IMG/VR virus record: IMGVR_UViG_3300045988_167063
From: a virus
Length of the DNA stretch: 64,000 nt
Strand: one strand, 5' to 3'
Shown here: positions 16,981 through 50,582 of the stretch, piece by piece
Layout of the letters: each line of letters begins with the position of its first letter
Numbering within the stretch: position 1 is the stretch's first letter
The notes under the pieces: model-generated
The model's database searches: none
The model's input: only the letters and a program-made list of their open reading frames with translations
Told to the model about the DNA's origin: nothing
Position numbers and translations under genes: made by a program

Positions 16981-17556
16981 TTAACCATAATCGTAAATAT
17001 CACTGAAATCATCTAAATCAATTTCAGCATCTTGTTCATCTTTCACATACTTAATATAGACTTTATCACAAAAGTAATTAAACATTGCCAAAGTCATATA
17101 TCTATCCTTTGTAGCTGTACTTTTTTCTTTAACTCTAACACCTTTATCTTTAAATTCTGTTGTTAAAGTAATTGCCTCATTAATAGCATACCTTGTTTCA
17201 ACAAACGGTACAAGGTCATAAGCCTTCTTTTCAGAGGACTTCAATATCCATTTACTATCTTTTTCTTGAAATAGTAATTCCATTTCAGAGTCATCTTTAA
17301 GAAAACTAATTATATTATCTTTAAGATTTTTTCTCATCGCTAAGTGCATATCACTATTGATTTCACTTGTACCAGCAATAGGAATAATTACTTCTTCGGC
17401 ATTAGAGTCCATAGTCCTATTAATTTTATCATTTATGATTTTATCAGAGCTTATTTGTAAAATTTTATCTCTACATACAGTCCACGCAGGATATGTAATA
17501 TCTCTTTCATCATCATATGTTTCAGTTGTCAATAAATCAAAGAAAACATTTCCTAC
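16981..17556 (-). CDS. terL: terminase large subunit, exon 3 (nuclease domain)
   Basis: Begins VGNVFFDLL directly after the intron-terminal G. Continues the MDSKG motif of exon 2. Confidence 0.7.
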   Translation of the reverse strand, partial: VGNVFFDLLTTETYDDERDITYPAWTVCRDKILQISSDKIINDKINRTMDSNAEEVIIPIAGTSEINSDMHLAMRKNLKDNIISFLKDDSEMELLFQEKDSKWILKSSEKKAYDLVPFVETRYAINEAITLTTEFKDKGVRVKEKSTATKDRYMTLAMFNYFCDKVYIKYVKDEQDAEIDLDDFSDIYDYG

Positions 17557-17911
17557 CAATTATGTTATCATATAAGTTTTTTATCTTATATTTCTTATAG
17601 TTGTATTTCCTATAAGTTCGGCGTACCTTTTCATCTAATAAATTTATTTATATAAAAATGACAAGTTTATTTTATTTTTTTGCGTTCCAAAATACATATA
17701 CTTCTTCACTTATTATCATTTATTACTACTAATTATTTATTAGATGCCGAGAACTCTTGGCAAAATTATATTCTATAAAAATAGTTTCATTTGCTACGCT
17801 CTGCGTGTGACTATTCTTTTAAAAATAGCCTTCCACTCGGATTGACATTTCAGTTTTTCCGTTTCTTTCTCGGTTCGATTATATATCACTATATAAAAGG
17901 GCGAAGTTTTC
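17557..17911 (-). mobile_element. ORF-less group I intron (terL intron 2)
   Basis: The 3' end ..CTTATAG-N9-CTATAAG..ATATAAG-N8-CTTATAT-GATAACATAATTG is shared, with compensatory changes, with the introns at 18893-19178 and 24047-24936. The 5' exon ends in GGU. Confidence 0.7.
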
Positions 17912-18892
17912 ACCTTTTGAGTCCATAACAAAATATGTGCATTTATAATCATAAAATAATCTTTTTATCATTACAATTTGTTTTTGAGAATTTAAACCAT
18001 TTTCGGCTTTTATATACTCTACTTTTCTTTGATTTGTTTCTATATCTATATTTCCTAATACAAAAACTGTATTATCGTTTTCTCTACCACCACTAACGGC
18101 AATATCCATTGCCAATACTCTTATTTCATTTTCGTGACTAAAATCATATTTATTTTTAATATTATAATAATAGTCATCATTTGTAGTTGGTAAAAAAGCA
18201 GTTTCAAGCACTTGATTTTTATGAAAATCATCATACAAAAACAAACTACCTTCTGTTTCACCAAGCCACAAATTCAAAAACTCCATTTCAAAATCCAAAT
18301 CATTTGTATTTTCTCGTCTTGTTAAATACTGATTTTTTGTTTGAATTTTATTAGCAACTGCTGTAAATATATCACCTGCAAAAAAGCCATATTTAATTCT
18401 TTTATCTGTGTAATGCTTTCTAACTACTGTTTTTAAATAAGTCCAAACCCAATTATCTTTCGTTCTTGCCGAAGTCATAAATATTTGCTTTGGCTCAATC
18501 ATTAACCCATTAAAACTATATGGCTCAAGCATAGGTTCAACAATAGACTCATAGTCTCTTTTCTTAACAATTCTTGCCTCATCTGTTATAGTTATATTAG
18601 CTCTTGCACCACGACCTGTTTCATTACACGCAACAGCGAATATTTTACTACCATTGCCATATTCGACAACTCTACCACCTGTTGTTTTATCTTTTGTAAA
18701 GTTAATATAGCCATCTGCTCGTAGTTGTTTTAAAATAGGACTTATGCCTTTTTTGTCACTACTTAACAACTTATCAATTTTATCATCAATAATTTTATTA
18801 CTTTGACCTAAAGTAAGCGAAGTAATAGCAATTTGAACTCCGGGTAAAAGCAAAGCAAGGTCATTGGCGAGAACACCTATGGTAAAGGATTT
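17912..18892 (-). CDS. terL: terminase large subunit, exon 2
   Basis: KSFTIGVLAND.. completes the Walker A motif begun in exon 1. Ends ..YFVMDSKG. Confidence 0.75.
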
Positions 18893-19178
18893 CAATTTTG
18901 TTATCGTATAGGCTCTTTATCCTATACTTCTTATACTGTACTAATTTTCGTATAAGTTCAGAGTACATTTTCATACATAAATACAGAGTATGTGGACACT
19001 CTTGGTGATATTATATTCTTCCATTTCAAAAGTTTCAATCACTACTCGTTACAATACTATTAATTTTTACATTAAATAGTTATCTCGGTGTTGTACTTAA
19101 AATTAGTGTAGTTTCACCGATTTTGCCCAATTTGCTTTATAACTATCTATAATTCATTATAAAGGAGCATTATTATTT
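18893..19178 (-). mobile_element. ORF-less group I intron (terL intron 1)
   Basis: Splits IASRGLS|KSF inside the P-loop. The 5' exon GAGU pairs with GCUC 10 nt into the intron. The 3' end ..GTATAGG-N8-CCTATAC-GATAACAAAATTG matches the family. Confidence 0.75.
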
Positions 19179-47241: not shown

Positions 47242-48126
47242 ATGACAAACACAGAGTTAATAAAGATATTTGAACAGACAATAAGGCAAAAACCATTCTC
47301 TTTAAGTGAGAATACAATTAAGACTTATTTATATCATATTGATAGTCTTTTAAAATTCCTCGACAATAAAAACATTGCCGAGATTATAACAAAAGACATT
47401 AAAAAATATTTGTTTAATATCAGTTCTGTGGGTGTTTCAGATACAACCTATAATATTTCATTGGCAGGGTTTAAATGCTTGTATAAAGCTTTGAGATACA
47501 ATCCTATGACAGAAGATATTATTCAAAATAATCCAGCTATTGATATTCCAAGTATCAAAAACGCAAAACAAAAGAAAAAGACACCTTTAAATGAAATTGA
47601 AAAACAGGCATTATTGCATAGTTGTAAAAATGTAAGAGATTATGCTATTCTTGTAACTTATTTGAATGTTGGCTTGCGTGTTCACGAACTTGTTAATTTA
47701 ACACTTGAACAATATCTTAATCGTGGCGAAAATGGCGAAATTAAACTTGTTGTTAATAAAGGCTCTTATGATGATGAATATATTTTTATCAACGAACAGA
47801 CCGAAAAGGCAATAGATAATTATATTAAGAATTTAAGAAAAGATTGTGGCTGTAAATATCTTTTTGTATCAAATCAAGGCAACCAAATGACACCAAGTTG
47901 TATTTCTAAAACTATTAAGACTTTGGCAAGAAGAAGTGGTAAGTTTTCAGAAGATAGAATTTCACAATTATCAAATCATATTATGCGACACACTATGGCA
48001 ACTGATTTAGTTAATGAAAATGTGCCGATTGATGTTGTTGCAATGGTATTAAGACATCATAGTCTTGCAACAGTTATGACTTATGCAAAGACGGATAAAG
48101 AAAGAGTTATGGAGGCAGTAAGATGA
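47242..48126 (+). CDS. tyrosine recombinase (XerC/D / phage integrase family)
   Basis: N-terminal SAM-like core-binding region, GLRVHELVNL (Arg I), HIMRHTMATDL (H-x-x-R) and LRHHSLATVMTYAKT (catalytic Tyr). Confidence 0.8.
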   Translation: MTNTELIKIFEQTIRQKPFSLSENTIKTYLYHIDSLLKFLDNKNIAEIITKDIKKYLFNISSVGVSDTTYNISLAGFKCLYKALRYNPMTEDIIQNNPAIDIPSIKNAKQKKKTPLNEIEKQALLHSCKNVRDYAILVTYLNVGLRVHELVNLTLEQYLNRGENGEIKLVVNKGSYDDEYIFINEQTEKAIDNYIKNLRKDCGCKYLFVSNQGNQMTPSCISKTIKTLARRSGKFSEDRISQLSNHIMRHTMATDLVNENVPIDVVAMVLRHHSLATVMTYAKTDKERVMEAVR

Positions 48127-48295: not shown

Positions 48296-48559
48296 ATGAA
48301 TATAAATATAATAAGACCTTCAGTTGAAATAAAATCTATTAAACTTAAAGATGTTAAAGCAGGAGATGTGTTTTATATCCAAGGGGCAGATGATGTTCCT
48401 TTTTTAAAAACAAAACTTCGTATTCCTGATTTTACTAATAGATATTCTGATGAATATTTGATTGGTGCAATGAATTTGACAAACGGTAATATAATTGATT
48501 TTACTCAAGATACATATGTAAGACTTTATAAAAAAACTAAATTAACAATAGAGGTTTGA
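48296..48559 (+). CDS. hypothetical 87-aa protein
   Basis: GAGGAG SD. Confidence 0.6.
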   Translation: MNINIIRPSVEIKSIKLKDVKAGDVFYIQGADDVPFLKTKLRIPDFTNRYSDEYLIGAMNLTNGNIIDFTQDTYVRLYKKTKLTIEV

Positions 48560-48560
48560 T

Positions 48561-48827
48561 ATGGAACAATATTATATGACAGAAACAAAAATGGGCGATT
48601 TTAGTCTACACAAAATTAAGCGTTTATATGGCATTTTAAAGGCTTTTAAAATCTATGATACTTATTTCCGTATTGAAAGTAAAAATGGAAAATTCACGCT
48701 CTCAACCTGCTCATTTCTTATTTTAACAAGTTTGTGTGGACTTAATGAAGTAGTAACAATTAAATTGTATGGAAATGATAAAGAATTATTGGAAAATACA
48801 AAAAGACAACTCGAAAGGATAGCATAA
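48561..48827 (+). CDS. hypothetical 88-aa protein
   Basis: AGAGG SD. Confidence 0.6.
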   Translation: MEQYYMTETKMGDFSLHKIKRLYGILKAFKIYDTYFRIESKNGKFTLSTCSFLILTSLCGLNEVVTIKLYGNDKELLENTKRQLERIA

Positions 48828-49003
48828 TGACAGTTGAAGAATTAGTTTATAAAAAAGACCTATATAATAGTGTTGTATTTATATATGATAACCATAAGGG
48901 TTATTATATCTATATAGGTAAAGCTAAAGATATTCCACAATGTATTTTAGAACGCATTGCAGATGAAAATTCTTATAAGTCAAGACATTTTAATATTTTG
49001 TAA
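48827..49003 (+). CDS. small hypothetical protein (58 aa)
   Basis: TAATG-coupled; hand-translated. Confidence 0.45.
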   Translation: MTVEELVYKKDLYNSVVFIYDNHKGYYIYIGKAKDIPQCILERIADENSYKSRHFNIL

Positions 49004-49012
49004 AAAAAGTTC

Positions 49013-49041
49013 TTGACTTTTGCTTTATTTTGTGGTATAAT
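49013..49041 (+). promoter_or_regulatory. sigma-A-type promoter of the RNA locus
   Basis: TTGACT-17-TGgTATAAT. Confidence 0.8.
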
Positions 49042-49057
49042 ACAGAAGAAGTTAAGA

Positions 49058-49179
49058 GTTGAGCAATTAGAGATTATACTTACTTGTTTGTTTTCATAAT
49101 GTATACCTCTTTCAATTAAAATAATTTACCTCCAAAAAAAATATATAAAACAGGTAGGTGTAATCTTTAATTGCTCAAC
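49058..49179 (+). ncRNA. ~120-nt leader hairpin closed by a 19-bp stem
   Basis: GTTGAGCAATTAGAGATTA (49058-49076) pairs with TAATCTTTAATTGCTCAAC (49161-49179), with one G-U wobble. The interior contains TTACCTCC. Confidence 0.6.
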
Positions 49180-49186
49180 CAAATAT

Positions 49187-49260
49187 AGAGAGTTAGTATA
49201 ATAGTAGTACAACAGACTTTGAATCTGTCGGAAAAGGGGCAGAACCTTTACTCTCTGCCA
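49187..49260 (+). tRNA. tRNA-Gln(UUG)-like cloverleaf with non-canonical D and T loops and an encoded CCA
   Basis: Acceptor AGAGAGT/ACTCTCT, D stem GTAT/GTAC, anticodon arm ACAGA-CTTTGAA-TCTGT, T arm AAAGG-GGCAGAA-CCTTT, then GCCA. Confidence 0.55.
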
Positions 49261-49956
49261 ATCCCTAACGGCGAGGGTTATAATGTGTCCGTACATAAGA
49301 TGAAATCAAATTCCCTAAATGGAGAGTAATCGTGTGTCGTTTTAGGTTTTGCGACTATAAATAATAATTACTTTGTATAGTCTTTTAGGGTGACTCCAAA
49401 GAGTGAGATAATATCAAGAGTGGGTGTGTAAGTTTTGGTAGTTCTTATAGTCAAAATACTACTAAGCACAATATGATAATAGTGAGGTTCTAATTAAATA
49501 TTATTATTTAATATTCCGACTATTTGATAGTGCTTTTATGTGGCAAAAGATATTAAGGAATTTAGCCACGGATTTTTAATTCAAAATCTAAAATTCCATT
49601 AGACAGTTAGCCATTTAAGTGGCAGTGTGTTAAGCACAGAAGATTTTAGGCAAGTTAGTCAAGCCTTCGGTTAAGAAAGACTTAATTGAAAACGGACTAC
49701 ACGCAGTCTGAGCGTGACAAAATCAAGTGTGGTGACTTGAAAAGAAAGATAAGAAAAGCCAAATACTAATTATTACCAAAATAAGTTAGGACTTTTTGTA
49801 TTGAGTGGGTTATTGACCTATCCATAGTTTTTCTAATGTTGTAATTTTACGATAAAAGAGTGTGCATTATTTTATACGAATTTTACAACACCGACTTTGC
49901 ATTGTTTTTTTCTTTGCTCTGACATACGGCAAATTAAATATAGTATGTTATTTATG
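49261..49956 (+). ncRNA. candidate large structured ncRNA (~700 nt; ROOL/GOLLD-like context or a new class)
   Basis: No ORF of 60 aa or more on either strand. Sampled 60-mers are 38-42% G+C against about 28% in flanking genes. Many local hairpins. Bounded by tRNA-like elements and lies downstream of a consensus promoter. Confidence 0.5.
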
Positions 49957-50025
49957 GCAGATATAGTCCAAGTAAGGCATCTATTAACTAAATAGAAAAT
50001 AAGAGTTCAATTCTCTTTATCTGCC
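49957..50025 (+). tRNA. tRNA-like element with an aberrant anticodon loop
   Basis: Acceptor GCAGATA/TATCTGC, canonical T arm AAGAG-TTCAATT-CTCTT, 3-bp D stem. Anticodon arm TCTAT-TAACTAA-ATAGA lacks U33. No encoded CCA. Confidence 0.45.
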
Positions 50026-50053
50026 TCTATTGAATAATAATAGGAGATGAATT

Positions 50054-50230
50054 ATGCGAAAGTATAAAAGAAAAATTGCTCACTATAAAATGGAGCGAGA
50101 AGGTATTAAACACATCAATAAAACAGTAAGAAAGCGAAATGGTGAGGTTATTCCGAGTTTTTTCTCTCAATTTTGGAAAACTTATGTGACTAAACCATTA
50201 GCACCAAAAGTATCATTAAGGAAAGGTTGA
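50054..50230 (+). CDS. small basic protein (58 aa)
   Basis: TAGGAG, 8 nt, then ATG; hand-translated MRKYKRKIAHYKMEREG... Confidence 0.5.
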   Translation: MRKYKRKIAHYKMEREGIKHINKTVRKRNGEVIPSFFSQFWKTYVTKPLAPKVSLRKG

Positions 50231-50237
50231 TAAAAGT

Positions 50238-50582
50238 ATGAAGAAATATGTAACATACACATCTGATGATGGTAAGTTTAGTCATTCAGATGTCAAGAAA
50301 GTAGAACAGTATGAGGCAAAGGTAAAGGCTGAAAAGGAAAGAAAAGCCGAACTTAAAGCAACAAAAGAAGCAAGAAAAGCAGAAGTTGATGAGGCTATAA
50401 ATAAGGCTTATGAACTTTTTAAGCAGTTTATGAAAGATTATGGCACTTATGAAACCAAATACACCACAGTAAGCAATTATAAAGGTGAAAAATTTGATGA
50501 TTTTTTTAAATTTTATAAAATGTTAAATCCGTCATTTTCCGATGCTTTGTCATTTCTTGACGGTTCGTTTTACAAGGATTAA
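50238..50582 (+). CDS. hypothetical 114-aa protein with a Lys/Glu coiled coil
   Basis: ORF track. Confidence 0.65.
   Translation: MKKYVTYTSDDGKFSHSDVKKVEQYEAKVKAEKERKAELKATKEARKAEVDEAINKAYELFKQFMKDYGTYETKYTTVSNYKGEKFDDFFKFYKMLNPSFSDALSFLDGSFYKD

What the first reader, a model, noticed from the sequence alone, without database searches (positions are those of the whole stretch)
49013..50025. Promoter-driven ~1-kb ORF-free RNA locus: leader hairpin, tRNA-Gln-like element, ~700-nt GC-enriched structured region, second tRNA-like element
A consensus promoter (TTGACT-17-TGgTATAAT) fires into 1.0 kb that has no ORF of 60 aa or more on either strand. The next SD plus ATG is at 50054. The locus contains four parts in order.

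(i) A 19-bp long-range stem (49058-49076 with 49161-49179, one G-U wobble) closes a ~120-nt hairpin. Its interior carries TTACCTCC at 49126-49133, which resembles the 16S anti-SD.

(ii) A 74-nt cloverleaf (49187-49260) has a perfect 7-bp acceptor stem, anticodon loop CTTTGAA (UUG) and an encoded GCCA. Its T loop is GGCAGAA and its D loop lacks GG.

(iii) About 700 nt follow in which hand-counted 60-mers are 38-42% G+C, against about 28% in neighbouring genes. This stretch is packed with hairpins, for example GACTATA/TATAGTC (49353-49382), GTGGC/GCCAC (49540-49569) and TGTTGTAA/TTACAACA (49837-49890).

(iv) A second cloverleaf (49957-50025) has a canonical TTCAATT T arm but a non-functional-looking anticodon loop, TAACTAA.

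Phage-borne, tRNA-adjacent, several-hundred-nt structured RNAs are the known genomic context of ROOL and GOLLD RNAs. The degenerate tRNA-like flanks could act as RNase P/Z processing punctuation that releases a discrete RNA. If no known model fits, this is a new giant phage ncRNA.
Basis: partly seen in the sequence, partly recalled or inferred. Interest (0 to 1): 0.9.

Follow-up and report, generated by a model that had tools for sequence, protein, structure and literature searches.

The report
Remodelled phage tRNA operon, not ROOL/GOLLD
The 1-kb ORF-free stretch is a cut-down tRNA gene cluster of an SPbeta-like gut phage, in which two odd tRNA-shaped elements frame conserved, hairpin-rich non-coding RNA modules; it is not one giant ROOL/GOLLD-type RNA.

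Summary
There is a near-consensus promoter (49013-49041), no ORF of 60 aa or more under any stop-codon reading, a leader hairpin, and two Rfam-positive tRNA-like elements (49187-49260, 49957-50025). G+C of the middle is 31.9% against 29% for the window, not 38-42%.

No Rfam family other than tRNA matches, so ROOL and GOLLD are excluded.

In a sister phage clade (YorF about 65% identical), the same promoter-led locus holds a canonical tRNA array: Gly-(Met)-Leu-Thr-Ile-Gln. The window keeps four recognisable pieces of such an array:
- a Gln(UUG) tRNA with an aberrant T loop;
- a decayed tRNA-Ile (49650-49774);
- a ~125-nt three-hairpin element (49775-49899), which also occurs in tRNA arrays of two other phage clades and shows covariation;
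- a Gly-derived tRNA-shaped element with a closed 5-nt "anticodon" loop.

The middle tolerates indels of 133 and 200 nt between relatives about 95% identical. Even so, its 5' two-thirds diverges 4-20 times less than 4-fold degenerate sites. Local hairpins carry compensatory and + strand-only G-U changes.

My reading is a tRNA-punctuated polycistronic non-coding transcript made of modules, not one large fold. What the modules do is unknown.

The parts
49013..49041 (+). Sigma-70/sigma-A-type promoter TTGACT-17-(TG)TATAAT. The expected transcription start is about 49048.
   Evidence: 11 of 12 matches plus the extended TG. It is invariant in 5 relatives and about 80% conserved at the same position in the sister clade, ahead of its tRNA array.
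49058..49179 (+). Leader hairpin with a 32-bp stem (49058-49089 / 49148-49179) and a 58-nt A/U-rich loop. The loop carries ACCTCTTTC (49105-49113) and TTACCTCC (49126-49133), which resemble the 16S 3' tail (anti-SD).
   Evidence: inverted repeat I1.: -42.8 kcal/mol and z -7.4 on the + strand, against -34.0 and z -4.7 on the - strand; four G-U pairs exist only on the + strand. Divergence from relatives is 0.7-1.4% for 49043-49186.
49187..49260 (+). tRNA-Gln(UUG)-like gene with G73 and an encoded CCA. Its T loop is GGCAGAA and its D loop lacks GG.
   Evidence: Rfam tRNA 51.8 bits. ARAGORN does not call it. Of the tRNAs compared it is closest (65%) to the sister-clade tRNA-Gln(UUG), which shares G73 and the encoded CCA. 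CAA makes up 82% of Gln codons in the window.
49261..49462 (+). Conserved non-coding module 'midA', with hairpins CCCTAACGGCGAGGG and GACTATA/TATAGTC. No homolog was found outside the close clade.
   Evidence: Divergence is 0-4.5% against 6.8-16.6% at 4-fold sites. Folding z is about 0. A 200-nt insertion sits at its 5' edge in L001/L026 and a 20-nt insertion at 49313 in L025.
49463..49595 (+). Dispensable 133-nt A/T-rich three-hairpin module. It is present in the window, L003 and L025, and absent in L001 and L026.
   Evidence: MFE z is -2.9.
49596..49649 (+). Two small conserved hairpins, 49610-49623 and 49625-49637.
   Evidence: helices 1 and 2; one U-G to U-A change.
49650..49774 (+). Decayed tRNA-Ile(UAU)-derived segment, now three hairpins: 49656-49699, 49700-49716 and 49723-49740.
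   Evidence: Local alignment to the sister-clade tRNA-Ile gives z 3.7 and p 0.005; ten other tRNAs give z < 1. It is collinear with the spacer that follows tRNA-Ile in L011. An A-U to U-A compensatory change occurs in 49700-49716.
49775..49899 (+). Conserved ~125-nt three-hairpin RNA element. Hairpin 1 is 49779-49797 (loop UAGG), hairpin 2 is 49802-49824, then single-stranded CAUAGUUUUUCUAAUG, a long variable hairpin 3 at 49837-49890, then ACCG.
   Evidence: nhmmer finds it once per locus in three phage clades, always inside tRNA arrays. Hairpins 1 and 2 have 97% of cells paired and 4 covarying pairs, against 0-1 in slid controls. Hairpin 3 refolds at the same place with different sequence. 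There is no Rfam hit, and it occurs once in the window.
49900..49956 (+). Fast-evolving tail with a T-run and the hairpin 49920-49950.
   Evidence: Divergence is 5-24%, roughly the neutral rate. The hairpin keeps pairing through C-G/U-G/U-A changes (helix 11).
49957..50025 (+). tRNA-shaped element derived from tRNA-Gly(UCC). It has a canonical T arm, no encoded CCA, A33, and in effect a 6-bp 'anticodon' stem with a 5-nt loop.
   Evidence: Rfam tRNA 44.7 bits. ARAGORN calls Ser(ACT) here and Gly(ACC) in relatives. The acceptor stem is identical to L029 tRNA-Gly. Positions 32/38 covary, C-G to U-A. All 6 substitutions are compatible with the cloverleaf.
50040..50230 (+). SD (AGGAG) plus ATG at 50054 of the first downstream gene (58 aa). 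This is the start of the YorF / Sak4 / DnaB replication module.
   Evidence: No terminator-like site occurs between the promoter and this gene.

Best explanation
The locus is a remodelled phage tRNA operon.

What is shown:
- The promoter is conserved.
- The locus is non-coding.
- It has tRNA-array ancestry.
- The modules are under sequence constraint.
- Local hairpin covariation fits the + strand.

What is inferred:
- A strong early sigma-A-type promoter (49013-49041) makes one long non-coding transcript. With no terminator in between, it probably runs on into the replication-module genes.
- Host tRNA-processing enzymes (RNase P at the 5' sides; RNase Z or exonucleases plus CCA addition at the 3' sides) recognise the two tRNA-shaped elements and cut the transcript into pieces.
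- The pieces would be a ~140-nt leader-hairpin RNA, a tRNA-Gln(UUG)-like RNA that may still read the dominant CAA codon, a ~700-nt spacer RNA, a Gly-derived tRNA-shaped RNA that no longer decodes, and the downstream mRNA.
- The 32-bp leader stem is also a likely RNase III substrate.
- The spacer is not one fold. It is a string of modules: some dispensable, one a decayed tRNA-Ile, and one a ~125-nt three-hairpin RNA shared with other phage tRNA arrays.
- The function of the modules is unknown. My best guess is small stable RNAs or processing and stability elements, analogous to RNAC and RNAD of the T4 tRNA region.
For: tRNA-array ancestry:
- Synteny is the same in all relatives: XerD-like integrase, small ORFs, promoter, non-coding locus, small ORFs, YorF, AAA_24/Sak4, DnaB.
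- The sister clade carries 5-6 canonical tRNAs at this locus behind the same promoter.
- The window retains Gln(UUG), a tRNA-Ile remnant (p 0.005, specific to Ile), the post-Ile spacer element and a Gly-derived element.

Non-coding status.

Constraint:
- The leader, midA and midB1 diverge 0.8-3.7%, against 6.8-16.6% at 4-fold sites and 2.7-4.9% at other coding sites.
- 300-nt windows across 49001-49600 sit at or below about the 10th percentile in the L003 and L025 comparisons, and nearer the 10th-25th percentile in L001 and L026.

RNA-level structure on the + strand:
- The leader is about 9 kcal/mol more stable on the + strand.
- Five pairs show double changes in local hairpins, against 0-2 in slid controls and 0 of 500 shuffles.
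- The element's hairpins covary across three clades.

Other:
- tRNA2 keeps its cloverleaf while the loop drifts.
- No terminator-like site lies in 48500-50500.
[quoted passage not shown] Abundant lncRNAs lie next to tRNA genes in phage K (PMC9241854).
Against: - There are no expression or processing data. RNase P/Z and RNase III cleavage are inferred from shape alone.
- tRNA1 lacks the canonical T-loop and D-loop elbow residues, so both its decoding and its processing are uncertain.
- Covariation rests on few independent events: 5 close relatives and three clades for the element. The tested structures were derived from the same alignments.
- Low divergence could partly reflect recent recombination or sweeps in a mosaic genome. 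Some neighbouring genes are equally conserved.
- Folding energy of midA is no better than shuffles.
- The 30%-identity clade and Enterocloster phage PMBT24 lack the locus entirely, so it is accessory.
Confidence: 0.6

Rival explanations
1. This is the reader's view: 49261-49956 is one discrete, globally folded giant ncRNA of the ROOL/GOLLD kind, released by tRNA-like punctuation.
For: - The locus is phage-borne, tRNA-adjacent, ORF-free and promoter-driven.
- The sequence is strongly conserved over 49261-49774.
- Whole-region MFE z is -2.46.
Against: - No ROOL, GOLLD or other large-RNA model hits, even at E <= 10.
- Indels of 200, 133 and 20 nt separate relatives about 95% identical.
- All supported pairs are local. 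RNAalifold's long-range pairs never vary.
- The - strand folds equally well (z -2.75).
- G+C is not enriched.
- Only about 125 nt is conserved beyond the clade.
- Part of the region is a tRNA-Ile remnant.
Confidence: 0.08
2. The locus is a decaying tRNA array. Apart from possibly tRNA-Gln, everything between the promoter and the first gene would be non-functional pseudogene and spacer debris, read through as a long 5' UTR.
For: - The sister clade has intact tRNAs where the window has remnants.
- The tRNA2 anticodon is degenerate and variable.
- The tail and tRNA2 evolve near the 4-fold rate.
- Large indels are tolerated.
- More distant relatives do without the locus.
- midA has no excess folding energy.
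Against: - 49043-49774 diverges 4-20 times less than 4-fold sites, and less than coding non-4-fold sites, in all four comparisons.
- Local hairpins show compensatory changes.
- The element is conserved across three phage clades with covariation.
- The substitutions in tRNA2 all preserve the cloverleaf.
Confidence: 0.17
3. The locus is a DNA-level element such as a replication origin, attP or an operator region. This would fit its position between an integrase-like gene and the replication module, with the hairpins acting as DNA palindromes or protein-binding sites.
For: - The position is upstream of YorF / Sak4 / DnaB and 0.9 kb downstream of a XerD-like recombinase.
- It contains an A/T-rich 133-nt stretch with palindromes.
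- The ~55-nt 5' half of the conserved element is conserved mainly in sequence and contains two similar T-rich 14-mers 35 nt apart.
Against: - There are no iterons or direct-repeat families.
- The A/T-rich module is missing in L001 and L026.
- Stems contain G-U pairs that would be mismatches in DNA, and changes run through G-U intermediates on the + strand only.
- The element occurs inside tRNA arrays of other, larger phages, where it was not seen next to YorF-type replication genes.
- tRNA1 is not a copy of a canonical host-type tRNA, as an attP core would be.
Confidence: 0.07
4. The locus is a cis-regulatory 5' leader of the replication operon. The structured RNA would control read-through or translation of orf58b and the downstream genes, for example by sequestering the SD with the CUCU just 3' of tRNA2 or with the anti-SD-like leader loop.
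For: - No terminator lies between the promoter and 50054.
- A predicted hairpin pairs CUCUAUU (50026-) with AAUAGGAG, the SD.
- The leader loop has two ACCUC(C) motifs.
Against: - 1 kb is far longer than known leaders.
- tRNA processing would sever most of it from the mRNA.
- The SD-proximal segment is the least conserved part, with 7 of 26 differences in L001 and L003.
- The sister clade puts ordinary tRNAs in the same place.
Confidence: 0.08

Closest known systems
Phage tRNA gene clusters with co-transcribed small stable RNAs (T4 tRNA region with RNAC and RNAD)
   Same: Non-coding RNAs lie among tRNA genes under a phage promoter. Their ends are presumably set by the tRNA-processing machinery, and their roles are unknown (PMC3014915). 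The sister clade shows a bona fide array of A-ending-codon readers at this locus.
   Different: Here most tRNAs have been lost or have decayed. The spacers are much longer (85-700 nt) and highly conserved. One bracketing element is tRNA-shaped but has no anticodon loop. Sequence relationship to T4 RNAC/RNAD was not tested, because no model for them is in the tools; Rfam gave no hit.
ROOL (RF03087) and GOLLD (RF01998) large ornate RNAs
   Same: The genomic context matches: phage or prophage, next to tRNA genes, several hundred nucleotides, ORF-free (PMC5737381, PMC12286853).
   Different: No covariance-model match appears even at E <= 10. There is no G+C enrichment. The locus is modular and tolerates indels. 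There is no evidence of a global fold.
tRNA-like processing punctuation (mitochondrial tRNA punctuation, MALAT1 mascRNA, E. coli tRNA-operon spacer-derived sRNAs such as 3'ETS-leuZ). These are recalled from general knowledge and were not tested here.
   Same: A tRNA-shaped element whose role is to be cut by RNase P/Z and so define the ends of neighbouring RNAs. tRNA2 keeps its acceptor, D and T arms, but its 'anticodon' arm is a closed 6-bp stem with a 5-nt loop.
   Different: Cleavage has not been shown. tRNA2 evolves about as fast as 4-fold sites in overall rate, so the constraint is on shape only.
Phage K (Kayvirus) lncRNAs adjacent to tRNA genes
   Same: Abundantly transcribed phage non-coding RNAs next to tRNA genes in a Firmicutes phage. 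The authors themselves compare them with ROOL and GOLLD on context (PMC9241854).
   Different: No sequence comparison was made, and the window matched no record in the phage DNA collection. Phage K is a lytic Herelleviridae phage, not SPbeta-like.
C-rich-loop sRNAs of Firmicutes that pair with Shine-Dalgarno sequences (RsaE/RoxS type). This is recalled from general knowledge.
   Same: The leader hairpin exposes two ACCUC(C) motifs in a 58-nt unpaired loop. These could pair with GGAGG-type SDs.
   Different: There is no Rfam match and no known target. The motif count could be chance. The stem is far longer (32 bp) than in those sRNAs.

Membership tests
ROOL RNA (Rfam RF03087) | Match to the family covariance model (sequence plus structure). 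| tested here: not met
   cmscan of the whole window at gathering thresholds and of 48900-50150 at E <= 10 with lax filters gave no ROOL hit.
GOLLD RNA (Rfam RF01998) | Match to the family covariance model. | tested here: not met
   Searches gave no GOLLD hit. The same holds for related loci.
ROOL/GOLLD-like large ornate RNA (generic) | One conserved multi-domain fold with long-range covarying helices and G+C above the genome background. | tested here: not met
   Only local helices carry pair-preserving changes. Indels of 133 and 200 nt occur among close relatives. G+C is 31.9% against 29.0%.
tRNA (Rfam RF00005): element 49187-49260 | Covariance-model score above gathering (29 bits). | tested here: met
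   51.8 bits.
tRNA (functional decoder): element 49187-49260 | 7-nt anticodon loop with U33, a canonical T loop (T54-Psi55-C56, A58) and D-loop G18G19. | tested here: inconclusive
   The anticodon loop CUUUGAA is canonical, and G73 plus CCA are present. But the T loop is GGCAGAA, the D loop lacks GG, and ARAGORN does not call it.
tRNA (Rfam RF00005): element 49957-50025 | Covariance-model score above gathering. | tested here: met
   44.7 bits.
tRNA (functional decoder): element 49957-50025 | 7-nt anticodon loop with U33 and an anticodon stable among close relatives. | tested here: not met
   The loop is UAACUAA, CAACCAG or UAACCAA, with A33. The anticodon reads ACU or ACC. Positions 32 and 38 covary as a base pair.
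Phage tRNA gene array / operon | Clustered tRNA genes on one strand behind a promoter, with positional homology to arrays in related phages. | tested here: met
   The same promoter and flanking genes are present. The sister clade has 5-6 tRNAs here. The window retains Gln, a decayed Ile, the post-Ile spacer and a Gly-derived element.
tmRNA / Y-RNA-type tRNA mimics | ARAGORN tmRNA call or an Rfam tmRNA/YrlA match; G3-U70 in the acceptor stem for tmRNA. | tested here: not met
   There is no tmRNA and no such Rfam hit. The acceptor stem GCAGAUA/UAUCUGC has A3-U70.
Stand-alone sRNA gene | Own promoter and an intrinsic terminator bounding the RNA. | tested here: not met
   No terminator-like site lies in 48500-50500. 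The only strong promoter is at 49013.

The most novel reading that the evidence does not exclude
In this reading the locus is a tRNA-punctuated 'sRNA operon'. tRNA-shaped elements that have lost decoding would be kept purely as RNase P/Z cut sites, releasing several trans-acting phage RNAs.

Two of those RNAs would be new:
- A previously undescribed ~125-nt three-hairpin RNA family specific to phage tRNA arrays. It could, for example, be a decoy or regulator aimed at host tRNA-targeting defences or tRNA processing.
- A leader-hairpin RNA that displays 16S-3'-tail (anti-SD) mimics to titrate Shine-Dalgarno sequences or a factor that binds the 16S tail.

A parallel case exists in another phage clade: a tRNA-like RNA with GAUCCUCCUU in a 21-nt anticodon loop (L029/L030).
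Probability: 0.2. Interest if true: 0.75.

Novelty: new variant of a known kind. Interest (0 to 1): 0.42.

Why it matters
Phage tRNA clusters are usually read only as codon-supply or counter-defence devices. This locus shows one turning into something else. Most decoders are gone. What remains is under stronger sequence constraint than the neighbouring genes, including a tRNA-shaped element with no anticodon loop and a small structured RNA shared by tRNA arrays of unrelated gut phages.

If the pieces are stable RNAs, three things follow. tRNA arrays would be a place to look for new phage sRNAs. The locus would be a bacterial-virus example of tRNA punctuation used to make non-tRNA products. And the 125-nt element would be a candidate new RNA family. 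The analysis also removes a false lead: this is not a new ROOL/GOLLD-class giant RNA.

Tried and rejected
- **Rfam.** Searches at gathering and at E <= 10 on the window locus, on L001, L004 and L029, and at gathering thresholds on L003-L005 and L011-L015 returned only tRNA hits. The rest were chance microRNA-precursor hits on the long leader hairpin.
- **DNA similarity to 50,697 phage records.** Both near and distant modes found no match.
- **Hidden ORFs under TGA, TAG or TAA read-through.** None was found.
- **A second, relaxed motif pattern in IMG/VR.** It returned the same 7 contigs.
- **The motif as a repeated phage promoter.** It occurs once in 64 kb. Its best sigma-70-like reading (TTATTG-16-TCTAAT) is weak.
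- **Cryptic tRNAs in the middle.** The general tRNA covariance model finds none at E <= 10. Only the Ile-specific alignment is significant.
- **Homology between the window's middle and the sister clade's 558-nt 'X' region.** None was found. X itself shows no compensatory changes among 4 copies.
- **Iterons or an origin signature.** None was found.
- **Leader-loop pairing with 49682-49691.** This is a 10-nt perfect complement (I2). I judged it to be at chance level for A/T-rich sequence.
- **Full-length structure count on alignment A3.** I abandoned it after two string-length errors and replaced it with alignment A7.
Full report
**1. What is in the sequence**

- A near-consensus promoter, TTGACT-17-TATAAT with an extended TG, lies at 49013-49041 and is the best site in the 2 kb scanned.
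- No ORF of 60 aa or more exists on either strand.
- All three stop codons occur in all six frames. Reading through TGA or TAG opens no ORF (at most 66 codons). Only TAA read-through gives a 179-codon open stretch on the - strand, and TAA is this phage's main stop codon.
- The next SD plus ATG is at 50054.
- Rfam's tRNA model hits 49187-49257 (51.8 bits) and 49957-50025 (44.7 bits), and nothing else reaches gathering in the 64-kb window.
- With lax filters and E <= 10, the only further hits are plant microRNA-precursor models that align to the long leader hairpin. These are chance matches to its shape. ROOL, GOLLD and every other large-RNA family are absent.
- ARAGORN calls only the second element, as 'tRNA-Ser ACT'.

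It has 32 bp, 49058-49089 with 49148-49179. MFE is -42.8 kcal/mol (z = -7.4) on the + strand and -34.0 (z = -4.7) on the - strand, because four pairs are G-U on the + strand only.

- The middle (49261-49956) is 31.9% G+C against 29.0% for the window. 200-nt windows run 27.5-38%, which is inside the range of neighbouring genes.
- Its folding energy is only modestly better than shuffles and is no better on the + strand than the - strand (z -2.46 and -2.75). For 49261-49400, z is about 0.

**2. Genomic setting**

The neighbouring genes are a XerD-like tyrosine recombinase (47242-48126), small ORFs, then YorF (PF27337), an AAA_24/Sak4-like protein, a DNA methylase and a DnaB-like helicase. This is the replication module of SPbeta-like phages. 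The nearest cultured phages by DnaB are Enterocloster phages (36% identity) and SPbeta relatives (32%). Enterocloster phage PMBT24 has the same XerD ... YorF-like ... RecA ... DnaB order but no tRNAs there. No phage record shares DNA similarity with the window.

**3. Relatives and what they show**

A protein search with YorF, followed by contig look-ups and IMG/VR scans, gave three tiers of relatives.

(a) *Close relatives (YorF 89-96% identical): L001, L003, L025, L026.* The locus is present (alignment A3) in two haplotypes.
- L001 and L026 carry a 200-nt insertion immediately after the CCA of tRNA1 and lack window 49463-49595 (133 nt).
- L025 has an extra 20 nt at 49313.

(b) *Sister clade (YorF about 65% identical): L004 and L011-L015.* The upstream ORFs and the promoter align with the window (about 80% identity across the promoter). 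Behind the promoter lie an ORF-free 'X' region and then a canonical tRNA array, Gly(UCC)-[Met]-Leu(UAA)-Thr(UGU)-Ile(UAU)-Gln(UUG), at 53-71 bits each with spacers of 6-460 nt. L004 is a deletion derivative that fuses the first 23 nt of tRNA-Gly to tRNA-Gln. Arrays here therefore evolve by recombination between tRNAs.

(c) *Distant clade (YorF about 30% identical): L005-L009 and L016-L024.* Genes are contiguous between the recombinase and YorF, and the locus is absent.

**4. The window's locus is a remodelled version of that array**

- *tRNA1.* It has anticodon UUG, discriminator G73 and an encoded CCA, like the sister clade's tRNA-Gln, which is its closest match among the tRNAs compared (65%). 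Its T loop is GGCAGAA and its D loop has no GG. CAA makes up 82% of Gln codons in the window's genes, so a Gln(UUG) reader would be useful. Whether this one works cannot be told from sequence.
- *tRNA2.* Its acceptor stem, GCAGATA/TATCTGC, is identical to that of a tRNA-Gly(UCC) in L029, and ARAGORN calls it Gly(ACC) in relatives. The loop reads CAACCAG, TAACCAA or TAACTAA, always with A33. Positions 32 and 38 change together (C-G to U-A), which gives a 6-bp stem and a 5-nt loop. All six substitutions among relatives keep the cloverleaf: one restores a D-stem pair and one makes a G-U in the acceptor stem. It is a tRNA-shaped RNA, not a decoder.
- *tRNA-Ile remnant.* Window 49630-49785 aligns to the sister tRNA-Ile with z = 3.7 (p = 0.005), while ten other tRNAs give z < 1. 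The alignment runs on collinearly into the spacer that follows tRNA-Ile in L011.

**5. A conserved small element inside the spacer**

Outside the close clade, only window 49775-49899 is detectably conserved (nhmmer). A profile finds exactly one copy per locus. It lies after tRNA-Ile in L011, L012 and L015. It lies after tRNA-Leu in three much larger IMG/VR phage contigs, L028-L030 (115-192 kb), and it is always inside a tRNA array. It occurs once in the 64-kb window and has no Rfam match.

Its layout is as follows.
- Hairpin 1 (49779-49797) and hairpin 2 (49802-49824) have 97% of cells paired. Four pairs change on both sides, against 0-1 when the partners are slid.
- An invariant single-stranded run, CAUAGUUUUUCUAAUG, follows.
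- Hairpin 3 (49837-49890) is long and refolds at the same position with different sequences in each clade. It also shows a G-C to A-U change within the close clade.

With only three clades the number of independent events is small. I therefore call it a candidate structured RNA motif.

**6. Is the rest functional or debris?**

Against the window, divergence at 4-fold degenerate sites in seven flanking genes is 9.6% (L001), 16.6% (L003), 6.8% (L025) and 12.7% (L026). At other coding sites it is 2.7-4.9%. Divergence of the parts of the locus is shown below.

| Part | Divergence from the window |
|---|---|
| Leader | 0.7-1.4% |
| midA (49261-49462) | 0-4.5% |
| 49596-49774 | 0.6-5.1% |
| Element (49775-49899) | 0-9.8% |
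| Tail (49900-49956) | 5-24% |
| tRNA2 | 3-9% |

In 300-nt windows, 49001-49600 is among the least diverged stretches of the largely coding DNA compared. It sits at or below about the 10th percentile against L003 and L025, and near the 10th-25th percentile against L001 and L026. Neutral debris should diverge faster than coding DNA, not slower.

Across 49596-50025, local hairpins show five pairs with changes on both sides, against 0-2 in slid controls and 0 of 500 shuffles. Many one-sided changes pass through G-U on the + strand.

These facts argue for selection on a + strand RNA. There are caveats:
- the genome is mosaic;
- some genes are equally conserved;
- the tested structure was derived from the same alignment;
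- module-sized indels are tolerated.

**7. How it most likely works**

*Shown:*
- a conserved promoter;
- a non-coding locus;
- tRNA-array ancestry;
- sequence constraint;
- local covariation fitting the + strand;
- a tRNA-shaped element without anticodon function;
- no terminator-like site before the next gene.

*Inferred:*
- One transcript starts near 49048 and continues into the replication genes.
- RNase P and RNase Z (plus CCA addition) cut at the two tRNA-shaped elements, and RNase III may cut the 32-bp leader stem.
- The products would be a leader-hairpin RNA, a Gln(UUG)-like tRNA, a roughly 700-nt spacer RNA that is modular rather than one fold, a tRNA-shaped by-product, and the mRNA.

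The closest documented analogue is the T4 tRNA region, which also yields two small RNAs of unknown role, RNAC and RNAD (PMC3014915). Phage K lncRNAs next to tRNA genes are a second analogue (PMC9241854).

The leader loop's ACCUCUUUC and ACCUCC motifs resemble the 16S 3' tail and could pair with Shine-Dalgarno sequences. This is a lead, not a finding.

**8. Verdict**

- The ROOL/GOLLD interpretation and the idea of a single giant RNA are rejected.
- 'Just a tRNA cluster' is true of the locus's origin but not of its present state.
- I rate it a new variant of a known kind: a phage tRNA operon with embedded non-tRNA RNAs.
- Interest is moderate. It rests mainly on the 125-nt element shared by tRNA arrays and on the anticodon-less tRNA-shaped element.

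Noticed in passing
L004 4250-4807 (= L013 3493-4050, L015 3551-4101, L012 3865-4406): In the sister clade, a 558-nt ORF-free 'X' region of 40% G+C (flanks 27.5%) lies between the conserved promoter and the first tRNA. It contains a cryptic tRNA-like element (Rfam 40.9 bits, L013 3718-3792). L011 and L014 keep only its first 223 nt. It has no other Rfam hit, and the four copies show no compensatory changes.
   Followed up: partly
L029 2025-2112; L030 1846-1934: A tRNA-like gene (48.8 bits; ARAGORN calls it 'Thr', 90 nt) has a 7-bp anticodon stem closing a 21-nt loop, UGUUUUUUUGAUCCUCCUUCG. This resembles the anti-Shine-Dalgarno tail of 16S rRNA. It parallels the ACCUCC / ACCUCUUUC motifs in the window's leader loop.
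   Followed up: no
window 17806-17858 (- strand, intergenic between 16981-17559 and 17879-18895): The hairpin GGAAGGCTATTTTTAAAAGAATAGTCACA recurs here, and it also appears inside the 200-nt insertion that L001 and L026 carry after tRNA1 (L001 4410-4463). In both places it is in the sense orientation relative to local transcription. It is a small repeated non-coding hairpin of unknown role.
   Followed up: partly
window 48977-49019: A 15-nt-arm inverted repeat (AAGTCAAGACATTTT / AAAAGTTCTTGACTT) spans the stop codon of the upstream 58-aa gene and overlaps the -35 box, and is followed by a T-rich run. It could be a terminator of the upstream operon or an operator.
   Followed up: no
window 49081-49135, - strand: Inside the leader loop, the - strand reads GGAGGT ... 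AGAGGT-7 nt-ATG AAA ACA AAC AAG TAA, a 5-codon mini-ORF with a good SD. Nothing lies downstream of it on that strand, so it is probably the mirror image of the anti-SD-like motifs rather than a gene.
   Followed up: partly
L004 4808-4881 compared with L011-L015: L004 carries a single chimeric tRNA: the first 23 nt of tRNA-Gly(UCC) fused to tRNA-Gln(UUG). About 1.7 kb of array has been deleted. This shows that these arrays shrink by recombination between tRNA genes.
   Followed up: yes
L006 555-627; L007 1169-1243: The distant (30%) clade lacks the locus, but it has a lone tRNA-Gly(UCC) in a gene-free stretch about 2 kb upstream of the recombinase gene.
   Followed up: no
window 49100-49119 and 49682-49701: The leader loop contains a 10-nt perfect complement (UUUCAAUUAA / UUAAUUGAAA) to the decayed tRNA-Ile segment. 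I judged this to be at chance level for A/T-rich sequence.
   Followed up: partly
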